Shown here in pieces: positions 982-63,808 of a DNA stretch of 64,000 nucleotides. The stretch's first letter is position 1; each line of letters opens with the position of its first letter. The position numbers were made by a program, and so were the translations under genes. Where the stretch lies: contig OX597819.1 of NCBI GenBank assembly GCA_951406725.2, positions 110,236,001 to 110,300,000 of the forward strand, written 5' to 3'. The notes beneath the pieces were generated by a model. The model was not told the DNA's origin and did not search any database. It worked only from the letters and a program-made list of their open reading frames with translations. The stretch is from Octopus vulgaris (lineage: Eukaryota).

Positions 982-1205
982 CCACGGGCATATGGCGTAA
1001 TGGTTAAGAGCGCGGGCTACTAACCCCAAGATTCCGAGTTCAATAATGATAATAACACCAGCAATAGATATCTTGGGAATGAGAACCCAGGTTGTGTTCA
1101 AAATTCTACCAGGACACCTGATGATGGCTGAAGAATAAAACAGCCGAAATGTTGTGGTAACAACAAACAAGATGAGGACACACATCCGTCCATTATAAAT
1201 AATTC
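982..1205 (+). mobile_element. Solo tRNA-head + hammerhead element (pLTR-derived, SINE-like)
   Basis: Homologous to 16837-17099; A box TGGCGTAATGG, partial B box GAGTTCAAT; CTGATGA-TGGCTG..CAGCC-GAAA at 1118-1149. Confidence 0.8.
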
Positions 1206-1239: not shown

Positions 1240-1810
1240 TTGGAGAGTGTATCAAACGGTATGACCAACTCCTAAGTGACTTGGATGGTGCTCTGATGCA
1301 ACAATACACTAATGCATTGAAGATCAGCACAAACTTGTACCGGTTTATTTTATACAAGATGAGTAAGAAATAACAATAGAAGACCGTAAGTAAATGCACA
1401 AACTTCTGCATGCATAGTACTATTGGTTGAATGGTGCAAGTCAGTTTGAAGAAAGTACTGCTATTCTCACGCTATGTCGCAATAAAGATGCAGTACTCTT
1501 ACCCTATGGCAATGTCTGATTTGACAAAAAAAGTTCTGATAGCTGAGCTGGCGGTACCTTGCGAAGGTAATGAATAGGAATATGAAACGAAAGCATTAAA
1601 AATATGAAAGATATAGGAGAATCGTATTAGACACGAGGATGGCAATGTACGTCTTTTCCAGGAGAAGTGATATATTGGTTAGATCCACTATGCTCTGCTA
1701 GGTTTGAACTGGACTTGGGAGATAGAGAAAAGATGTGATTCGTGAACTGTAGAAGATAGTAGAAAATACTTTATGCTGGATATATCAGGATAAAATTAAA
1801 ATGCAGCAGT
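1240..1810 (+). mobile_element. Decayed Hero/R2-type restriction-like endonuclease 3' fragment
   Basis: KKVLIAELAVPCEGN and GWQCTSFPGEV resemble the RLE motifs ELTVPWE and GW..PVEVG. Confidence 0.55.
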
Positions 1811-13595: not shown

Positions 13596-13983
13596 GGTGG
13601 AGGCGCAATGTCCCAGTGGTTAGGGCAGCGGACTCGCGGTCGTAGGATCGTGGTTTCGATTCCCAGACCGGGCGTTGTGAGTGTTTATTGAGCGAAAACA
13701 CCTAAAGCTCCATGAGGCTCCGGCAGGGGATGGTGGTGATCCCTGCTGTACTCTTTCACCACAACTTTCTCTCACTCTTACTTCCTGTTTCTGTTGTACC
13801 TGTATTTCAAAGGTCCGGCCTTGTCACTCTCTGTGTCACGCTGAATATCCCCGAGAACTACGTTAAGGGTACACGTGTCTGTGGAGTGCTCAGCCACTTA
13901 CACGTTAATTTCACGAGCAGGCTGTTCCGTTGATCGGATCAACCGGAACCCTCGTCGTCGTAACCGACGGAGTGCTTCCATCC
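13596..13983 (+). mobile_element. tRNA-derived SINE family A, young copy; other copies at 17685-18071(-), 6915-7200(-), 11131-11320(+), 53375-53625(+)
   Basis: A/B-box-like head (TG.CCCAGTGG; GGTTTCGATTCC); direct repeat ATATATACACCG on both sides. Confidence 0.85.
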
Positions 13984-14496: not shown

Positions 14497-17099
14497 TGTA
14501 CATTATTTACATATTGTTTGTTGTTAACACAACGTTTTGGCTGATATACCCTTGGCTGATATACCCTCCAGCCTTCATCTTGGGGAAATTTCGAACCTGG
14601 GTTCTGATTCCTAAGGTATTTTTCGATGTTGTTGTTATTATTTCGTCTTCTTCTTCTGATTATCATTATTATTATTATTATTACTATTCAGGTCGATCTC
14701 GGAATCTTGGGGTTAGTAGCTTGCGCTCTTAACCACTACGTCATATGCCCGTGGGCAACAATGGAGTGAATTTTAGGGCTTATAAATCTAATATTCTCCT
14801 ATCCTTCTTTAATACCGGTTTCCATATGCTGTTCATATCTGCACTTGGTCTGCTTAGGAGGTTGTTGTGTCCTAGCATATGTTCTGCTTCATTTAGTTTT
14901 CGTATTTTCCAGTGGTGTTCTCTGTCTATTATTTTAACTTCATCCCACAGGAGGAAATGGTCTCCATTTTTCCATACATGATCAGCTATACCCGATTTAT
15001 CAATATCTCCCCATGTTACAGCTTTGCGATGTTCCTCTACCCTTATTTTGAGGGGGCGGCATGTTCCGCCTTTGTATAACCTACCACAGCTGCAAGGGAT
15101 GGAATACACGCAGTCTTTGGTCATGTTCTCTTCTATTGGTGGTTTTACTCGAAGTAGATATTTGCGAAGTGTTGTATTACTTTTGAATTCTGTCCTGATG
15201 TCATGGGCCGCATATCTTTTGTATCTTTTCAGAGAGGCCTTTCACATAGGGTAGACAGACTGTGGACAGTTTATCGGTTTCATCCTCTCTTTTCTTCCTA
15301 ACCGGAGTGGAGAGTATGCTTTTGGGGCAGTTGTTGCTTAATGAGTTGTTGCTTTCTTTGTGGTGGATATCGTGATCGTTACTTATATCCATTGCTCGAT
15401 GTTTTAGGCACTGAGCAATCCCTCTCTTTACACTGTATGGCTGGTGGGAGTTGAAGTTGAGGTATCGTCCAGTGAAGGTCGGCTTGCGGTATACGGATGT
15501 TCTGAATCCATAGTTGGTGCGTGTTATTAATTCGTCCAGGAATGCTAGCTGATTGTCTTTTTATTTTTCCATTGTGAACTGTATGGATGGCTTTATTGAG
15601 TTCACATGATCTAACAGCACTTGGACATCTTCCTGGTGGGGCCAGAGTATGAAGGTGTCATCAACATATCGTAGCCATAGGATTGGTTTTAGTGGTGTTG
15701 ATCCTAAAGCCAAATTCTTAAAGTATTCCATGTATATGTTTGCTATTATCGGTGATAATGGCGAACCCATAGCTAAACCCTCTGTTCTGTCGATATATAT
15801 CAGTGTCTGTACTGAAGTAGGTAGTTTCTACACAGAAGATCAACAATTCCATCAAGTTTCTTAGTGCTATACTATTGCGTTCTTTTAGATGGGTGTCAGT
15901 CACTAGTTTTTTCTTGAATTACCTATAGTGCTTCACCAGTTGGGACTTTGGTGAACAGGTTTATCACATCTAGACTCAGCATCTGGTTGGATGCAATGGG
16001 GGTATCATTGATCAATTCTGTGAAGTGGGTGGAATTCTTCACGTACAATGTTGACTTTCCTACTAATGAACTCATTATATCCACAAGGAAGCGGCTCAGT
16101 GGATGACATGCTGAACCTCTACAGCTCTCTATAGCTCTTAATGGAATACCATCCTTGTGAATCTTAGGAAAACCGTACATGTGTGGTTGTTTACTGTAGT
16201 GTTGAGTCAGTCGTCTGTACTTCATTGGTGTAAAGTGATCCTTGTTCTTGATCAAGATCTGTGACAACTCTCCCTCTGTTTTCAAAGTAGGGTCTTTACT
16301 TTGCCAGTTTTTCCGAGTAGTCAGACTTGTTCATCACCACAGTAACATTCCCCATTGTCTGCTGCAAGTATTATGATCGAATTGTCACTCTATAGTCTTT
16401 TGATAGCGAACGTTTCTTCCTCAGTGATGTTTGGTTTGGGAAGTTTCGCTTTTTCTAGTACCTGTCTCACTTTCCCCTTTAGTTCATCTCCCTGAGCTTT
16501 TGGTATCTTTATGGCTATCTCTTCAATAGGGGCTATTATGTCCAAGTATGGAATGCGCTTGAAGGTTGTTGCAAAGTTGAGACCTTTGTTCAGTACTGCT
16601 TCTTCAGAGCTTTCTAGATGTCGGCTACTTTTATTAATCACTGCTTTCACGGGTGGGTGACGTACTTCAGTCTCCTTCTCTGACCTTTGAGTTTCATAAA
16701 CTTTTTAATCTGGCGTGTCTTCACAATTTCACCATCTGCAGACCGAGTGCAGATATGAACAGCATAAGGGAACCGGTATTAAAGAAGGATAGGAGAATAT
16801 TAGATTTATAAGCCCTAAAATTCACTTCATAATTTCCCACGGGCATATGGCGTAATGGTTAAGAAGCGCGGGCTACTAACCCCAAGATTCCGAGTACAAT
16901 TCCAGGCAGTGACCTGAATAATAATAATAATCATAATAATAATAATACCGAAAAATACCTTAGGAATGAGAACCCAGGTTCGAAATTTCCCCAAGACACC
17001 TGATGAAGGCTGGAGGGTATATCAGCCGAAATGTTGTGTTAACAACAAACGAGATGAGAACGAATATCCGTCAATTGTAAATAGTGTAAATAATGTACA
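14497..17099 (-). mobile_element. Decayed, 5'-truncated Penelope-like retroelement (RT + GIY-YIG) with inverted pLTR
   Basis: Fragments LNKGLNFA, YGFPKIHKDGIPLR, SLDVINLFTKVP, MGSPLSPIIANIYME, WLRYVDDTF, LPYVKGLSEKI, CVYSIPCSCGRLYKG; about 360-bp inverted arms 14497-14853 and 16738-17099; several stops and frameshifts. Confidence 0.93.
16995..17040 (+). ncRNA. Minimal type-I hammerhead ribozyme-like motif in the Penelope pLTR
   Basis: GACAC-CTGATGA-A-GGCTG(loop)CAGCC-GAAA-TG-TT-GTGTT; stem I GACAC/GTGTT; very short stem III as in PLE hammerheads. Confidence 0.7.
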
Positions 17100-17124
17100 C
17101 TCTAAGATGTAGAGCAGTTAATAT

Positions 17125-17684: not shown

Positions 17685-18071
17685 TTTTTAGAAGCACTCC
17701 GTCGGTTACGACGACGAGGGTTCCGGTTGATCCGATCAACGGAACAGCCTGCTCGTGAAATTAACGTGTAAGTGGCTGAGCACCCCACAGACACGTGTAC
17801 CCTTAACGTAGTTCTCGGGAATATTCAGCGTGACACAGAGAGTGACAAGGCCGGCCCCTTGAAATACAGGTACAACAGAAACAGGAAGTAAGAGTGAGAG
17901 AAAGTTGTGGTGAAAGAGTACAGCAGAGATCACCACCATCCCTGCCGGAGCCTCGTGGAGCTTTAGGTGTTTTCGCTCAATAAATACTCACAACGCCCGG
18001 TCTGGGAATCGAAACCGCGATCCCACGACCGCGAGTCCACTGCCCTAACCACTGGGCCATTGTGCCTCCAC
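17685..18071 (-). mobile_element. tRNA-derived SINE family A, young copy
   Basis: Near-identical reverse complement of 13596-13983; 12-bp TSD TCTTAGTCATGT. Confidence 0.88.
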
Positions 18072-22149: not shown

Positions 22150-24300
22150 TAATTAACTCCGGATATGTCTTCTGAGTCGAGTTGTCTGATTGTTGAGGTA
22201 TCCAAAATGTACAATGACAACAGGTAACATCACTGATGAAATGTCTAAGCGCATCAGACATTGATGTGTGAGGAAACCTGTATGGACTAATCAATGACTA
22301 CAAGAACAAGGTTCATTAATTACCTCTTGGTAATTAAGGTGGCGATAGATCGCGGGACAACGGACAGTGAAGGTTAGCAGACTCGCCTGTATCTTATATG
22401 AAGAACCTGCAATAAGCCACCGATCAACCTAAGGAAAGATAACCCCAAAGATTCTTGAGAGGTAGAAAGATGGGATCGTAGAACAGCCAAGAATGAATGG
22501 TGAATTTGAAATGTGCTGCAAAAAGATACGTCAGAATCCTCATTACCTGAAGATCCACCAGGCCAAGATGAAGTGTGTGCAGACGGTGCAAGAGTCACAG
22601 CGTATAGGAACCTTCTCTGTTGTGACGTAAGAGGAACTAGTTCCGGAATCAGGCCATAGTTCTCGAAACCTTTTGGTGTTGCTAACACAAAGTAACAAAA
22701 CATAATTGAGTAAAGTGGTCCCAAGCTAACATGGAGAAGGAGTAGGTCGAATTTGATAAAAAAGAATCTTGACTCAACCTGGAAGTAAGGACTAAGGGAA
22801 ATGCTGATTGTCGGTTCCAGATAATGACTACCATCATCAGCCGAACAGTTGAAAGGGTAGGGACTGGTGGAGGAAAAATTACCGAAACATTATGAGCAAC
22901 AGAACCAATAAGACCCACCTCCTCAGTGAAAAGCTAAGAGCTTTAGGCGGTAGTTCAAGGGGGTAAAATATGAAGAGAAGGGACTTCTCCCAGAGCTGCG
23001 AAGTATCAACCGCAAAAAAACTTATGACTTAGAGGAAGAGCTGAGTGGTGTCAGAGACGGCGACAGAAGAGTGTCAGAGTGCAAGCTGTATTTTAACAAA
23101 CCCTTATAAATTTATGAAACAGCTGCTGAGCCGAAATGCACCATTCGAATGGTGATATACACACACTTCAGAGACACCTTCGAAAGTGCATCTAGGGACT
23201 ATGACCTCGGCCACGGCACATCTTTGATCAATCTTCCAATACCGACTCTAGAATTTGATGGAAAGCAGCTCATTTGGAAAGAGGTCTACAAGTTTGTCAA
23301 GAAGGCAAGTACAAGTTCATCTTCAGAACCGAATAGATAACCTTAGAAAGTATACAAGAATTGCCTAAGGGTACTATGCAGGCTTTAAAGAATCCCGAGA
23401 TGATATAGAAGAAAGGTAAGGTGGTTTGTCAGTGAAAGGTTGAAAAAAAAAGATCCAAACAAAAAAGATCGAAGAACATCAGTCAGTTTAGAGTCCTCTC
23501 GTTACTCAGTATTAAAGTAAGATATTCTAAAGTATTGTTTCTGGGTGTCTGACTGGCTGGGTATTGCCAATGTCTTTGGATCCATACCCCACAAGCCAAT
23601 AGAAGAGGCATTGAACAAGCACCATGTTCCAGACCGTTCCTAGACTACTAAAACAGCTTCAGCCAGTGAGTCTCTGCTGAATCTGAAATAACAGGGCAAC
23701 AATAGTTCGAGACGGGTAACATGTTAATGATATCTTTTTGAGTTTACTATCAACATGCATTTAAAGTCGTCTGAGGAATAGCACAGCCTCTTACCAAGTC
23801 TGATGTCCTGAACCCTTCAATCAGGATTTTTATAGTTGACTTGGTTGGGACAACAATATCGTAGGGGACAGGAAAGCCCTTATAAAGCTGTTTGAACTTC
23901 AAGTCAGTAAAGTCTAAGTTTCTCATGCATTGAAGAAAGGTAAGGACAGGAACAAGTTTTGCACCACAGTTGGGAGTTGTGATGGGTCACCTCATCAGCA
24001 GACTGAAGCGAGTGTTCATGGTGACCTGTCCTGGAGGGGTGCTACTGTACCAAGAGGCCTGTGACCCAAAGGTTTTTCATGCTGGTATTAAGGTCAGACC
24101 AGGGCGGAATCGAAGAACAGCAAGTACTATAGATACTGCAGAATCGGGGCTAAGGTCTACAAAACCCTGGTGAATGTAGTGCCTAGTAAATGGACTGACA
24201 TGGGTGGTGGCCGAGCACTTTGCTATGACGTGAGTTAAAGATGTGAGATTGCAATGTAAGATCCTCACTGACGGTAACACCGGGCATATGCAGTAGTCTT
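22150..24300 (+). mobile_element. Highly decayed Hero-like non-LTR retrotransposon
   Basis: FDGKQLIWKEVYKFVKKA..S..PN, ISQFRVLSLLS and WLGIANVFGSIPHK fragments; boundaries approximate. Confidence 0.7.
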
Positions 24301-27925: not shown

Positions 27926-29204
27926 CGAGGGGCGTTCAATAAGTAATGTCCCTGACCCACTTGCATTGTTGGCGCTAGCTGAAATTTTGCGTGTGCAATT
28001 ATTTATAGTAGGTGGCAAATTACAGCTCTGAACTAATCGGGGTTTCTGATTTACAGGTGTTTGAACTGAGTCAAGTGTGAAATGGAGCCTGTTGAGTGTC
28101 GAGTAGTGATCTGGTTTTTGTATTTGAAAGGACGCACACCACGGAGACTTTTGATGAAATGAAAGTAACTTATGGTAACGATGCCCCATCATATGACCTT
28201 GTAAAACGCTGGCATCGTGAATTCAAACATGGTCGGAACTCGGTGGAAACAGCTCCCAGATCTGGTCGCCCCCTTTCTGCCATTGATGAGGCATCTGTCC
28301 GTCAAGTTGAGGCTGCCATTTTGGAAGATCGACGAATAACTATTCGCCAAATAGCCCATGAAGTCAAGATTAGTACCGGGTCTGTGGAAACTATCATTCA
28401 TGACTATTTGCATATGCAAAAGGTGTCTGCCAGATGGATTTCCAGGTTGCTAACACCTTTCCAGAAGCAAGAACGCGTCGAGTGCTCGAGGATGAATTTG
28501 GAGATGTGCCAAGAAGATGAGTCAAAATTTTTCAAAAGACTGATCACACAGGATGAAACCTGGGTCCATCACTATGATCCAGAGACCAAAGCCCAGTCAA
28601 TGCAGTGGAAGCACCGTGACTCAACTCCTCCAAAGAAGGCAAGGGTGCAGCCCTCCGCTGGCAAGGTCATGCTCACAGTCTTCTGGGACCAGGACGGAGT
28701 ATTGATAACAGATTTCCTGGCAAAGGGTACCACAATTACAGGAGCCTATTATGCTTCACTTTTGAGGAAATTAAGAGAAACTATCAAAATCAAGAGGCGG
28801 GGCAAGATCAGCAAAGGCATCCTCCTCCTGCAGGACAACGCTCCGGTCCACAACTCGCTTGTCGCCAGATCGGAAGCACAGGCGTGCTGCTATGAACTCC
28901 TCTCCCATCCCCCTACTCTCCTGACCTTGCACCCTCTGATTTTCACCTCTTCCCAGCCATGAAGTTGTTTTTGAAAGGAAAGCGTTTCCCAGATGATGCA
29001 GCCTTGATTTCTGAAGTCACGTCGTGGTTGGAGGACCAAGCTGAGTCTTCTAAAAAAACGGTCTCCAGAGCTGTATCAAACGATGGGAGAAATGCGTAAC
29101 TCTGGGTGGTTCCTATGTAGAGAAAGACTAATAACTGTGCAAAGTTTCGTTGCTCTACTGCTATGGGAAGTGGGTCAGGGGCATTACTTATTGAACGCCC
29201 CTCG
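27926..29204 (+). mobile_element. Full-length mariner DNA transposon (DD34D, irritans/Hsmar2-like TIR); transposase is a pseudogene
   Basis: TA target duplications; about 36-bp TIRs CGAGGGGCGTTCAATAAGTAATG; ATG 28082; TQDETW, LLQDNAP and (frameshifted) YSPDLAPSDFHLF; frameshifts near 28143 and 28912, further lesion near 29050. Confidence 0.95.
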
Positions 29205-49500: not shown

Positions 49501-51429
49501 TTAAATAACTGTATGCATAGCTATGTGACTTAAGAGGCTTGCTTCCAAACCATATAATCTTTGGTTCAATCCCACTGTGTAACACCTTGGGTAAATGTCT
49601 TCTCTAATTGTCCTGGGCTAACTAAAGCCTTGTGAGGGAATTTGATAGAAATCCGGCGCGAGCGCGCATGTGTATGTACCTTTGTCTTGACCTCATGTGA
49701 TAATTGTAAATGAGTATCACCGTCCTACAAGCAGTGTTGTTTATGTCCAGTTTTCTACGAGAAACATGTCTATTCATGTAAAAATATTACCTTGCTTGGA
49801 AATAGATGAGGGATGGTAATAGGAAGGGCATCCGGCTATGCAGAGTTTTTATTAGCAATTCTGTCTGGCCTATGTAAACATGGAAAAGTATGGGTTAAAC
49901 GATGACAATAATAATAACGGACTCCTTTGTACCGGAGAGCGAAAAAATATCTTGTAATATTTGTTCCAGCACTTTAGCGTCTAAATTCATTTCTCATTGA
50001 GGTCAATTTAACCTATCATGTTACCGTAGTCGATAAATTAAAGTACAAGTCGAGTACAAGATCGTAAATCAATCCTCCTCTTCAAATCTTTAGCTTTAAT
50101 GTTTAAGATATCTGATATACATAACGTCAAAAGTCAAGAAAAAAAAATTTAACGTATCAAGGGAAGTAACTCATACACAGGAACAACAGAGTTGTTTCCC
50201 TTGAAACAAATTTCGTATCGATATTCCGTACACTTGTTTGCTGTTTTGTGTTTGGACACAAAAAGCGAACAAATAACCGGAATTTTAAGATACCAGTTGA
50301 GAGGTTGGAGGTTTGTCTCATGTAAACACAACTAGGAGTATCTATGAAGTGTATTTTTAGTTAAGTCTTCACTATCCAATCTTTTAGCTTATACTATTGC
50401 TTCTGCCTAAAGCCCTAAATGAAAGATCGTACTGTGTACTTTGATAAAGGATGCAGCAAATTTTTCAACTGTGTTTGCTGTAGGATCTCCTATCGAAGTT
50501 TGGTGCCTTTGGGATCGATCCCTCTCTCATCTTTTGAATTAGAGGTCGCCGCTCAGATCGCATTATTGCAGTGTGCTGCTGCTGATGCTCTCTCACTGTG
50601 TTCCATCACGGTTGCAAATCTCTTCTCTCCACACTTTCGAAGTTTATTTAAAGGAAAGGGTGCTGACTTGGGTTGATACTCCACTGTCATCTCATGAGTT
50701 GCTGCTAGAACACAAAAGGCTGGAACAGACATTTTATCTGATCCTTTAAAAATTTCACTAATTCCTTATTCCAGATTGGTTCATTTTTGATCCTGTAAAG
50801 ATAAGATAAACGGTGAAGTTGACTTTGGCATGAGTGGAACTCAGAGCCAAAAGATTTGGAACTAATACCACAAGGCAGGACTCTGCCAATTCACTGCATT
50901 TTTGACTTATATGGTTAATCCACATTATTCCGTAAGGAGCATAGGGCTAGTTTCCTGGTTTCTCTGATGTATATATATTCCTCCCTTTGCTGGACTCCAC
51001 ATTTTTACCGGCTGAATTTACTGGATCAGCGTGAAATGAAGTGTTTTGCTCCAGAACACATTGCATTGCTCAGTCCAGGAATTGAAACCACACTCTTATG
51101 ATCACCCTTACCACTAAGCCATGTACTCCACTTTTGGCTTATATATATACAGATATAGTTCCACCACAAGATCCAATCTTTGTTGTGGTATGGTGGCCGT
51201 ATACCTCAGTGACCCTGAGAGCATTGCCAGCAACAGTCTCTTAGTAGGGTTTCCCATGCTGGACAGGTCAAAGGATACAGGCCAGACTAATATAGATCAC
51301 CTGTTCCCACAGGTAAAAATGGGTTTGTTTAGGGCCAACATTATGTTGAACGTTTTTTCAGATTAGTTTCTGTATAAAAAAGTGGTGTGTATTGAACCTG
51401 AGCTTATTTTTCTTTCTTTCTCTTTGCAG

Positions 51430-52263
51430 CCATGGAACATGAGAGGATTGTGTCAAAATTAGAGAAGGGTGACGTGGTGTATGATGTGTTTGCTGGTGTA
51501 GGTCCATTTGCCATCCCTGCAGCAAAAAAGGGGTGTGTTGTGCTAGCCAATGACCTGAATCCTGAGTCATACAAATCCCTTGTGCACAATGCAGCCATGA
51601 ACAGGATCAAATCTGACTTCTGTGCCTACAACCTGGATGGTCGGAAGTTCATCAGAAACAGCGTGAAGGAGGACATGTGTTGTCGATGGTTACAACTGAT
51701 TGATGCAGAAGCTATCCACAGCGGTGTGGATTGCAGTAATGTCAGTTACACTGATAATAATAATGAAAAAGCTGTTGGTGACAACATTGGAGGTTGTAAT
51801 AGTGGTGGAGGTATTATTGGTGCTGTTGTTGGTGGTATTTGCACAGACATTGGCAATGCTGCCTTCACAAAAAATTGGACTTCTCCTGCGTTCCACATTG
51901 TCATGAATCTACCCGCCATTGCTGTTGAATTCTTAGATGTCTTTCAGTCCATGTGCAGCGATATCCCTGTCACCAGCCCCGTAGTGTCTCTGCTGGAACA
52001 GAGGACGTACCTCCTGCCTCATGTCTATTGCTACTGCTTCTACAAGGGTGACAACCCCGAGGCAGATATTGAAAAACGGGTGCGCCAGGCACTCAGATGT
52101 GATCACCCACCTCAAGATCTTGTAATTCGCTTTGTACGCAACGTGGCACCAAGCAAAGACATGTACTGTGTAGAGTTTGTTGCATCGAAGGAGCTGCTAT
52201 GGAGACCAGTAACACAGACAAGGATGAAGGTAGATAGCCATGGAAATAGCAAATGCTATGCAG
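51430..52263 (+). CDS. TRMT5: TRMT5 exon 4, SAM-binding catalytic domain
   Basis: Acceptor tttgcag|CC ATG, phase 1; motifs DVFAGVGPFAIP, ANDLNP, NLDGRKFI, HIVMNLP, VYCYCF, VRNVAPSKDMYC; strong donor CAG|GTGAGT at 52264 (unspliced read-through would stop at TAA 52272-52274). Confidence 0.96.
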
Positions 52264-53692
52264 GTGAGTGTTAAAAGTTAACATATTACAACAACAGCAA
52301 TAGTCTTTGTGGATTGGATACATATGTATGTATGAATGCATGTACATTGACATACATTAACACACACAAACACACACACTCACACATAATATATATATAT
52401 CTAATATACAAAAGTGTTACTCAGGCACTCAACTTTGAGCCCACTGCATCTCATAGCAGAGACAGCTGTAAGCTAATGAAGTTCATATGTTAATCATTTA
52501 TTTCTTTGTTATGAAGGTGTAGGAGTGGCTGTGTGGTAAGTAACTTGCTTACCAACCACATGGTTCCGGGTTCAGTCCCACTGTGTAGCACCTTGGGCAA
52601 GTGTCTTCTACTATAGCCTCAGGCTGACCAAAGTCTTGTGAGTTAATTTGCTAGACAGAAACTGAAAGAAGCTTGTTGTACATATGTATATATGTGTAAG
52701 TATGTGTGTGTATATGTTTGTATGTCTGTGTTTGTCCCCCTTATATCGCTTGACATCTGATGCTGGTGTGCTTACCACCCCCGTAACTTAGCGGTTTGGC
52801 AAAGGAGACTGAGAGAATAAGTACTTGGCTTACAAAGAATAAGTCCTGGGGTCGATTTGCTTGACTAAAGGTGATACTTCAGCATGGCCATAGTCAAATG
52901 GCTGAAACAAGTAAAAAAGTAAAGAGTATACAGGATGAAGTGGTGAGAAAGGATCACCAGATGTTTGGCCTCACAGAAGGGGTGACAGGGGACTGAGACC
53001 TCTGGCAGTTTACTGTGCTAGAGAAGACATGTAAAGCTAAGTAAATATATGGCCATCCTTGCATACTGGTATGATGTCCCCTGTATCCTGCTTCAGCTGA
53101 GTGTTCATAATCTTGTGGGCTTGTGGGTGACAGTGCCACGTAAAAAGCACCTGTGCTGGTGCCACATAAAAGCACCCGATCCAGTTAAAAGTATACAGTA
53201 CACTCTATAAAGTGGTTGGTGTTAGGAAGAGAATCCAGCTGTAGAAACCACAACAGATATGGAGTCTGGGCAGCTCTTTAGCTGACCATCTCCTGTCAAA
53301 CTGTCTAACCCATGCCAGCATGGAAAGCAGACATTAAGTGAATATGATGATGATGATGATATATATTCCCGGTGACGTGTTGTAGCCTTGAGCAAGACAC
53401 TTTATTTCACATTGCTCCTGTTCACTTGGTTCGTAAGATGAGCAGTACCTGTATTTCAAAGGGCCAGCCTTGTCACACTCTGTGTCATGCTGAATCTCCC
53501 GGAGAACTACATTAAGAATACATGTGTCTGTGGAGTCCTCAGCCACTTGCATGTCAATTTCAGAGCAAGCTCTTCTGTTGATCATATCAGCTGGGACCCT
53601 TGTCATCGTAACTGACAGAGTGCCCCTTTTTTCCTTTACGCACACACACATACACATATGTGTATGTGTGTGTCTTTCAAATTTGTTTACAG

Positions 53693-62835: not shown

Positions 62836-63070
62836 TTTGATATATATGAATTAATTATTGAGAGTAATTCAATTGAATATTTTTAATTTGAATGTCTCAT
62901 TCCTATGACACTAGAATTGATATTCCCTAATTATTATAATTATTATTACAGTCATCTGCTAAAATAAGTCTTTTTTTTTTTTAAAAAAAGTCACTACATT
63001 ACTGACCACCAGTAGATCATATCTTCATATAGTTAATGTATATTTAAGTTTGCAAATATGAGACTAACAG

Positions 63071-63808
63071 AAGTATGGAAAGCCATTGGTGCCAAGGGCC
63101 AAAATCGCAAAGTATGGAAAGCCGTCGGGGCCAAAATCGCAAAGTATGGAAAGCCGTCGGGGCCAAAATCGCAAAGTATGGAAAGCCGTCGGGGCCAAAA
63201 TCTCAAAGTATGGAAAGCCGTCGGGGCCAAAATTGCAAAGTATGGAAAGCCGTCGGGGCCAAAATCTCAAAGTATGGAAAGCCGTCGGGGCCAAAATCGC
63301 AAAGTATGGAAAGCCGTCGGGGCCAAAATTGCAAAGTATGGAAAGCCGTCGGGGCCAAAATCGCAAAGTATGGAAAGCCGTCGTGGCCAAAATCTCAAAG
63401 TATGGAAAGCCGTCGGGGCCAAAATCGCAAAGTATGGAAAGCCGTCGGGGCCAAAATTGCAAAGTATGGAAAGCCGTCGGGGCCAAAATTGCAAAGTATG
63501 GAAAGCCGTCGGGGCCCAAAATTGCAAAGTATAGAAAGCCGTCGGGGCCAAAATCGCAAAGTATGGAAAGCCGTCGGGGCCAAAATCGCAAAGTATGGAA
63601 AGCCGTCGGGGCCAAAATCGCAAAGTATGGAAAGCCGTCGGGGCCAAAATCGCAAAGTATGGAAAGCCGTCGGGGCCAAAATCGCAAAGTACGAAAAGCC
63701 GTCGGGGCCAAAATCGCAAAGTACGGAAAGCCAGCAATGCCAAAATCACATAGTATGGAAAGCCAGCAATGCCAAAATCACATAGTACGGAAAGCCAGCA
63801 ATGCCAAA
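63071..63808. repeat. 32-bp minisatellite, about 23 copies (CCAAAATCGCAAAGTATGGAAAGCCGTCGGGG)
   Basis: 32-bp period (63099, 63131, ...); no spacers; degenerate units at both ends. Confidence 0.97.

What the first reader, a model, noticed from the sequence alone, without database searches (positions are those of the whole stretch)
982..1205. Solo tRNA-head + hammerhead unit: candidate SINE mobilised by Penelope
Seen: a diverged copy of only the tRNA-plus-ribozyme part of the pLTR, beginning 4 nt upstream of the tRNA head. Stem II (GGCTG/CAGCC) and the CTGATGA/GAAA core are kept while the stem II loop is largely different (aagaataaaa vs gagggtatat). Established: known SINEs borrow LINE tails. 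Inference: this may be a non-autonomous Pol III retrozyme-like SINE that parasitises Penelope machinery.
Basis: partly seen in the sequence, partly recalled or inferred. Interest (0 to 1): 0.7.

Follow-up and report, generated by a model that had tools for sequence, protein, structure and literature searches.

The report
Penelope element with tRNA-type promoter

Summary
The unit at 982-1205 is real: tRNA-like head, (AAT)n, minimal hammerhead. Copy 5' ends pile up at the head (38 of 55 insertions that reach it stop there, about 10 times the background rate), and head-bearing arms outnumber arms with the upstream Penelope UTR about 5-8 to 1. Random truncation is refuted.

An independent SINE is not supported. 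Short and ORF-linked copies show no diagnostic difference (0 of 191 columns). The odd loop is a second Penelope subfamily plus decay. The 3' 'tail' is the start of the ORF, and head-start copies sometimes run on into it. Full-length elements also begin at the head.

Best reading: a Penelope/Poseidon-type element whose pseudo-LTR begins with a tRNA-Arg-like promoter; internal priming of reverse transcription 250-290 nt downstream would yield these short copies. The element's sense strand has no shared TTTT run over about 2.9 kb, which hints that Pol III transcribes the whole coding element; this is untested. This copy is dead (B box partly deleted, ribozyme decayed). The scan noted this family before on other DNA (five notes).

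The parts
982..985 (+). 5' leader; family copies start at about -6 (GCCCAC), the predicted Pol III start
   Evidence: loose ends of RNA reads at -7
986..1044 (+). tRNA-derived head (best match host tRNA-Arg); A box 993-1003 intact; B box starts at 1038 and its 3' half is deleted in this copy
1042..1078 (+). (AAT)n spacer and linker of the pLTR
1079..1081 (+). ATG that opens the Penelope ORF when this unit is the 5' pLTR of a full-length element; the frame is broken in this copy
1113..1158 (+). minimal type I hammerhead: stem I 1113-1117/1154-1158, core 1118-1124, extra nucleotide 1125, stem II, GAAA, palindrome 1149-1152 (decayed to ATGT), predicted cut after 1153
   Evidence: architecture as in PMC4209133; integrity counts
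1159..1205 (+). 3' part of the pLTR, ending near the first of the family's two 3' ends (inferred reverse-transcription start); no poly(A), no T run
14510..14782 (-). 3' pLTR (UTR, head, hammerhead) of the broken Penelope copy in the window, subfamily 1
14783..16720 (-). 5'-truncated, frameshifted Penelope ORF (RT, GIY-YIG-type C terminus)
   Evidence: (RVT_1, E 1.3e-08)
16738..17101 (+). inverted pLTR of the same Penelope insertion

Best explanation
[quoted passage not shown] Steps: (shown) full-length elements are head-hammerhead-tail, ORF, UTR-head-hammerhead-tail; (inferred) transcription starts about 6 nt before the head; (inferred from the anole PAc biochemistry) the element's protein nicks DNA and starts reverse transcription at two internal sites 250-290 nt downstream, at the start of the ORF; copying back to the RNA's 5' end gives the short unit, often with a second inverted arm and a 9-13 bp TSD (shown as structure). 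The hammerhead is carried along uncut. Short copies are predicted to be mostly dead ends, because they lack the ORF sequence downstream of the start sites.
For: 5' ends: 38 of 55 insertions that reach the head end in -20..+8, per-base rate 0.040 versus 0.002-0.004 elsewhere (89 insertions from 90 loci). Exact 20-mers: head 5148, UTR 65 nt upstream 1027; calibrated about 15,000 versus 1,900 (n=32-45). 56 of 89 insertions have inverted arms; TSDs and a one-sided tail are visible. The tail encodes the ORF N terminus, homologous to P0023 (61% over 165 aa). 0 of 191 columns separate 74 short from 58 UTR-linked subfamily-1 arms; shared rare variants are no commoner among short pairs (38/2689) than mixed pairs (67/4289). 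Both subfamilies have short and ORF-linked copies. Among 73 loci chosen for the pLTR-ORF junction, 4 of 5 that reach the head stop there and run 29-179 nt into the ORF body; L230 and L235 start at +3 and 0. All but one of 30 ORF-selected loci carry head sequence (23 pass the fuzzy match, 6 show a partly deleted or cut head). A/B boxes sit at tRNA positions; best match tRNA-Arg, z 8.4. No shared T4 run on the sense strand in 18 long copies. PMC11167929.
Against: No transcript start was seen: three RNA runs of a related organism cover both directions equally and show no start peak at the head. Pol III use rests on sequence only. The T4 deficit is modest once codons are controlled (12 versus 44 summed over non-independent copies; single copies P 0.03-0.59), and one Neptune comparator family has only 4 runs in 2.8 kb. 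One junction locus (L426) extends to -62. The 'dead end' step borrows from a lizard element; Adineta pLTRs were reported to suffice for mobilisation in trans. Loci were chosen by exact patterns, mostly on contig C1, which favours little-diverged copies. The hammerhead fold is not the minimum-energy fold in 3 of 3 copies folded.
Confidence: 0.62

Rival explanations
1. An independent SINE: short copies are themselves transcribed by Pol III and re-copied in trans by the Penelope protein.
For: 5' peak, copy excess, A/B boxes; pLTRs sufficient in trans in Adineta. B boxes match more often in head-start arms (50 of 86) than in UTR-linked arms (26 of 69), though the groups were sampled differently.
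Against: No diagnostic position or short-only clade beyond one duplicated locus; the two subfamilies differ by an in-frame 6-nt indel that keeps the ORF start readable; no terminator or poly(A); head-start copies with ORF-body sequence.
Confidence: 0.18
2. The head fixes the 5' end for another reason: it is a captured SINE relic at which Pol II starts, where the RNA is processed like a pre-tRNA, or where reverse transcription or second-strand joining tends to stop.
For: PLE promoters described so far lie in the pLTR and are Pol II-like; the head is not called a tRNA; translation of an uncapped RNA is a difficulty (established knowledge).
Against: Ends fall at -7..+3, where a Pol III start is expected, not at the 3' foot of the structure where an enzyme would stall; T4 deficit on the sense strand only, absent in most comparators.
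Confidence: 0.15
3. A retrozyme: the hammerhead cuts tandem RNA into monomers or circles that are then reinserted.
For: Minimal type I hammerhead; non-LTR retrozymes are proposed to derive from pLTRs.
Against: Copies are dispersed singles or head-to-head pairs, not head-to-tail arrays; they extend 50-90 nt past the predicted cut and do not start at it.
Confidence: 0.03
4. Ordinary random 5' truncation of Penelope.
For: 34 of 89 insertions do end downstream of the head at the background rate.
Against: Tenfold jump in the end rate at the head; same pattern in subfamily 2 (6 of 8 independent insertions that reach the head stop there).
Confidence: 0.02

Closest known systems
Penelope/Poseidon-clade PLEs, esp. 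PAc of Anolis (PMC11167929, parts 1-2 of 4 of the text read) and Pen2a of Adineta (PMC3846280, passages)
   Same: pLTR-ORF-pLTR, hammerhead overlapping the ORF start, two 3' ends with a 30-40 nt tail that is ORF sequence, inverted 5' arm, TSD of about 10 bp
   Different: No tRNA-derived head is mentioned in what I read; their pLTR promoters are Pol II-like (TATA/Inr proposed); no 5' peak with a 5-8-fold excess of pLTR-only copies is described
Schistosoma Sm-alpha / Sj-alpha hammerhead SINE-like elements (seen through the review PMC6765202, passages; originals not read)
   Same: Pol III-type promoter joined to a hammerhead in a short dispersed repeat
   Different: Those occur as tandem repeats whose ribozyme frees monomers and have no ORF-bearing partner that shares the whole unit; here the unit is the pLTR of a coding element
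TRIMp3: Cassandra, Helenus, Ajax (PMC10886601, passages)
   Same: Small-RNA-derived Pol III promoter inside a terminal repeat
   Different: Non-coding LTR elements; the paper argues that their autonomous partners must use Pol II. Here the repeat belongs to a coding Penelope-like element
Non-LTR retrozymes (bioRxiv 10.64898/2026.07.22.740005, part 1 of 5 read) and non-autonomous Chlamys/MRC1 (PMC8557442, passages)
   Same: Non-coding relatives of PLE ends
   Different: Head-to-tail arrays; no tRNA head in the parts read
Octopus tRNA-derived SINEs of Ohshima and Okada 1994 (seen only as a citation and one sentence in PMC4824008; the names OK and OR2 and their tRNA-Arg origin are recalled)
   Same: tRNA-derived head in a probably related host
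   Different: OR1 is described as a CORE-SINE; sequences could not be compared, so prior cataloguing of this head is not excluded

Membership tests
EN+ Penelope-like element (pLTR) | RT plus C-terminal GIY-YIG-type endonuclease in one ORF linked to the unit | tested here: met
   RVT_1 hit; homologues 58-68% identical with PF00078 and PF26215; the endonuclease piece got no Pfam hit and is assigned from its motifs (own knowledge)
EN+ Penelope-like element (pLTR) | Direct pLTRs around the ORF, inverted 5' arm, one-sided 30-40 nt tail, TSD | tested here: met
   (family level; this copy shows no arm or TSD)
EN+ Penelope-like element (pLTR) | Minimal type I hammerhead in the pLTR | tested here: met
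   motif present; all elements intact in 18 of 83 arms; no Rfam hit
tRNA-derived SINE | tRNA-derived head with A and B boxes | tested here: met
   (tRNA-Arg best of 35 distinct host tRNA calls; not all isotypes sampled); B box broken in this copy
tRNA-derived SINE | Defined 5' end at the head, high copy number | tested here: met
tRNA-derived SINE | Own lineage, amplified from non-coding masters distinct from the partner | tested here: not met
tRNA-derived SINE | Transcribed by Pol III | not testable with these tools
   RNA runs laid were uninformative about starts
tRNA-derived SINE | 3' poly(A), simple-repeat tail or T-run terminator | tested here: not met
   3' ends are two fixed sites in ORF sequence
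Non-LTR retrozyme | Head-to-tail arrays of hammerhead monomers, ends at the cleavage site | tested here: not met
Non-LTR retrozyme | Self-cleavage and circular RNA | not testable with these tools
   needs an assay

The most novel reading that the evidence does not exclude
An autonomous, protein-coding retrotransposon transcribed end to end by RNA polymerase III from a captured tRNA-Arg promoter: its 2.9-kb sense strand has been purged of TTTT terminators, and it acts as LINE and SINE at once.
Probability: 0.3. Interest if true: 0.8.

Novelty: new variant of a known kind. Interest (0 to 1): 0.52.

Why it matters
Pol III promoters are the mark of non-coding parasites (SINEs, TRIMp3). A coding Penelope element that carries one in its pseudo-LTR would blur the LINE/SINE split, give a route by which hammerhead SINEs and retrozymes arise from Penelope ends, and mean that thousands of repeats annotated as SINEs here are Penelope by-products. 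The sharp 5' end also marks the template RNA's start, which makes the PLE promoter and internal-priming questions directly testable. The single copy at 982-1205 is a dead fossil of no importance by itself.

Tried and rejected
Rfam and ARAGORN: nothing relevant; relaxed ARAGORN gave only noise. The look-up of sequencing runs: no RNA holder listed. Covariation: no compensatory double change in 10 stem pairs over 83 arms; uninformative for copies decaying from a few masters. Folding did not give the hammerhead as the minimum-energy monomer or dimer. The first subfamily-2 5'-end run was an artefact of a reference that held an inverted tail and was redone. An apparent second peak at +131 in subfamily 2 is one old insertion carried in a multi-copy segment (9 loci with shared flanks) and was counted once. 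No close Penelope relative without the head was found in this genome; metagenome relatives are distant (30-55%). In one search, 27 of 73 loci had no scored pLTR piece (very short or rearranged 5' ends) and were left out of the 5'-end list. The tree gave 39 label changes with no shuffle control, so it carries no weight alone. Literature searches found no description of a tRNA-headed PLE; Repbase, Dfam, SINEBase, subscription journals and supplements were not seen, and the Ferbeyre 1998 and Gunnery and Mathews 1995 papers were not held.

Full report
1. Observation. The described unit is present at 982-1205. It matches the pseudo-LTR (pLTR) of a broken Penelope copy in the window at 16837-17083 (E 3e-44) and 14757-14510. 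That copy has RT and endonuclease pieces on the minus strand and an inverted pLTR. The window lies in a 2.8-Gb animal genome. Earlier notes call the host an octopus; I did not verify this.

2. This copy is decayed. About 23 nt with the 3' half of the B box are missing. The palindrome ACGT of helix III reads ATGT, and the frame from the ATG at 1079 hits a stop. There is no TSD and no inverted arm. The 'different loop' belongs to a second subfamily (S2; loop GAGAGTAAAT, several linked changes) with a few private changes. An exact S2 probe has 106 hits, an S1 probe 2643. S2 also has UTR- and ORF-linked copies.

3. The 5' peak is real. I took 90 of the 100 listed places (of 2643) for an exact hammerhead probe, all on C1, which are 89 insertions. 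Counting from head G1: 34 of 89 end at +9..+141 (0.0036 per base), 38 of 55 at -20..+8 (0.040), 2 of 17 at -50..-21, 4 of 15 at -200..-51. Complete arms start at GCCCAC, about -6. Ends at -11..-20 look like alignment run-on into the inverted arm. In S2, 6 of 8 independent insertions that reach the head stop there. Exact 20-mers give 5148 (head) versus 1027 (UTR, 65 nt upstream); rough calibration gives about 15,000 versus 1,900 arms. RNA reads of a related organism show loose ends at -7, so the boundary is shared.

4. Penelope machinery moved the short copies. 56 of 89 insertions have a head-to-head second arm; many show 9-13 bp TSDs with a tail on one side. Long and short copies share two 3' ends about 35 nt apart, with no poly(A) or T run. 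This is the PLE signature (PMC8557442 passages; PMC3846280 passages).

5. The unit is the element's own pLTR. Full-length copies read head-(AAT)n-hammerhead-tail, then ORF, then UTR-head-hammerhead-tail. The ORF opens at an ATG before the hammerhead, and the tail encodes its N terminus (61% identity to P0023 over 165 aa). Of 30 loci picked with a foreign protein, 23 pass the fuzzy head match, 6 show a partly deleted or cut head and 1 is cut before it. No column of 191 separates 74 short from 58 UTR-linked S1 arms, and short pairs share rare variants no more often than mixed pairs. Only 73 places match a probe for the pLTR-ORF junction. Of these, 46 had a scored pLTR piece; 5 reach the head, and 4 of them stop there and run 29-179 nt into the ORF body; one extends to -62. 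L230 and L235 start at +3 and 0. So RNA that starts at the head and continues into the ORF was a template.

6. Mechanism. In the anole element PAc, reverse transcription starts at two internal sites just inside the ORF, these define the tail, the template needs the first 172 nt of the ORF, and hammerhead cleavage is not required (PMC11167929). Applied here (inference): RNA starting at -6 offers its first start sites 250-290 nt downstream, and copying back to the 5' end gives the short unit. Long copies need a tandem template and the second pLTR-ORF junction. Short copies end at the start sites and would lack the downstream binding region. The hammerhead fits the minimal dimer type with an extra nucleotide before stem II (PMC4209133, part 1 and passages). 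All elements are intact in 18 of 83 arms, with no compensatory change.

7. Which polymerase? The head has A and B boxes at tRNA positions and best matches host tRNA-Arg (z 8.4; 35 distinct tRNA calls, not all isotypes). In 18 long copies no T4 run is shared over about 2,900 columns, while 29 A4 runs are; totals are 16 observed versus 70 expected by base shuffle, and 12 versus 44 by synonymous shuffle. The copies descend from few masters, so this is close to one observation: P for single copies is 0.03-0.59. Comparators without a head: a Neptune-type family has 9 runs in its 2.3-kb ORF (7 expected), another 8 (5.8 expected), a third only 4 in 2.8 kb; distant relatives L401 and L408 have 15 and 13 (13 and 11 expected). 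This favours Pol III read-through of the whole element but does not show it. Three RNA runs (one study) cover the family equally in both directions with no start peak at the head, as expected for passive transcription in host RNAs.

8. Comparison and novelty. It is a member of the EN+ PLEs by structure. It works like a SINE in output (defined head, thousands of short copies) but fails the own-lineage test. Closest analogues are the Schistosoma hammerhead SINE-like repeats and TRIMp3. Eight searches found no tRNA-headed PLE; repeat databases and supplements were not seen. PMC13282606 (passages) gives only class-level counts. Five earlier notes of this scan describe the same family; they pointed me to PAc and Pen2a and one already suggests Pol III for the whole element. 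They are leads, not support. What I add by test is the lack of a short-copy lineage, head-start copies that run into the ORF, and the T4 deficit with controls. Verdict: new variant of a known kind, interest 0.52.

Noticed in passing
window 13597-13978 (+) and 17691-18071 (-): Two 96.6% identical copies of a different tRNA-headed repeat lie inverted on either side of the Penelope insertion.
   Followed up: no
window about 1490-1810 (+): Frameshifted relic resembling the C-terminal restriction-like endonuclease of R2/HERO-type non-LTR elements (assignment from recalled motifs).
   Followed up: partly
window 28096-28962 (+): 288-aa open frame of a mariner transposase (Transposase_1, E 7e-25).
   Followed up: partly
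window 51402-52274 (+): Large exon of a TRM5-type tRNA methyltransferase gene (E 1e-16).
   Followed up: partly
window 22233-22276 (+): Third hit of the bare hammerhead core pattern; no sign of family membership, probably chance.
   Followed up: partly
window 63040-63800: Tandem array of units of about 32 nt, open in several frames.
   Followed up: no
L311, L315, L330, L331, L334-L336, L338, L339: One truncated S2 insertion rides inside a multi-copy segment of 2 kb or more, 89-98% identical, dispersed over several contigs; the carrier is unidentified.
   Followed up: partly
L291-L293, L310: A young Neptune-type Penelope family with intact 781-aa frames, 96-99% identical, in partial tandems; ARAGORN found no tRNA in the related loci L261-L290.
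   Followed up: partly
P0001-P0030: Proteins 58-68% identical to this family's C terminus occur in unnamed assemblies; host range and possible horizontal transfer were not examined.
   Followed up: no
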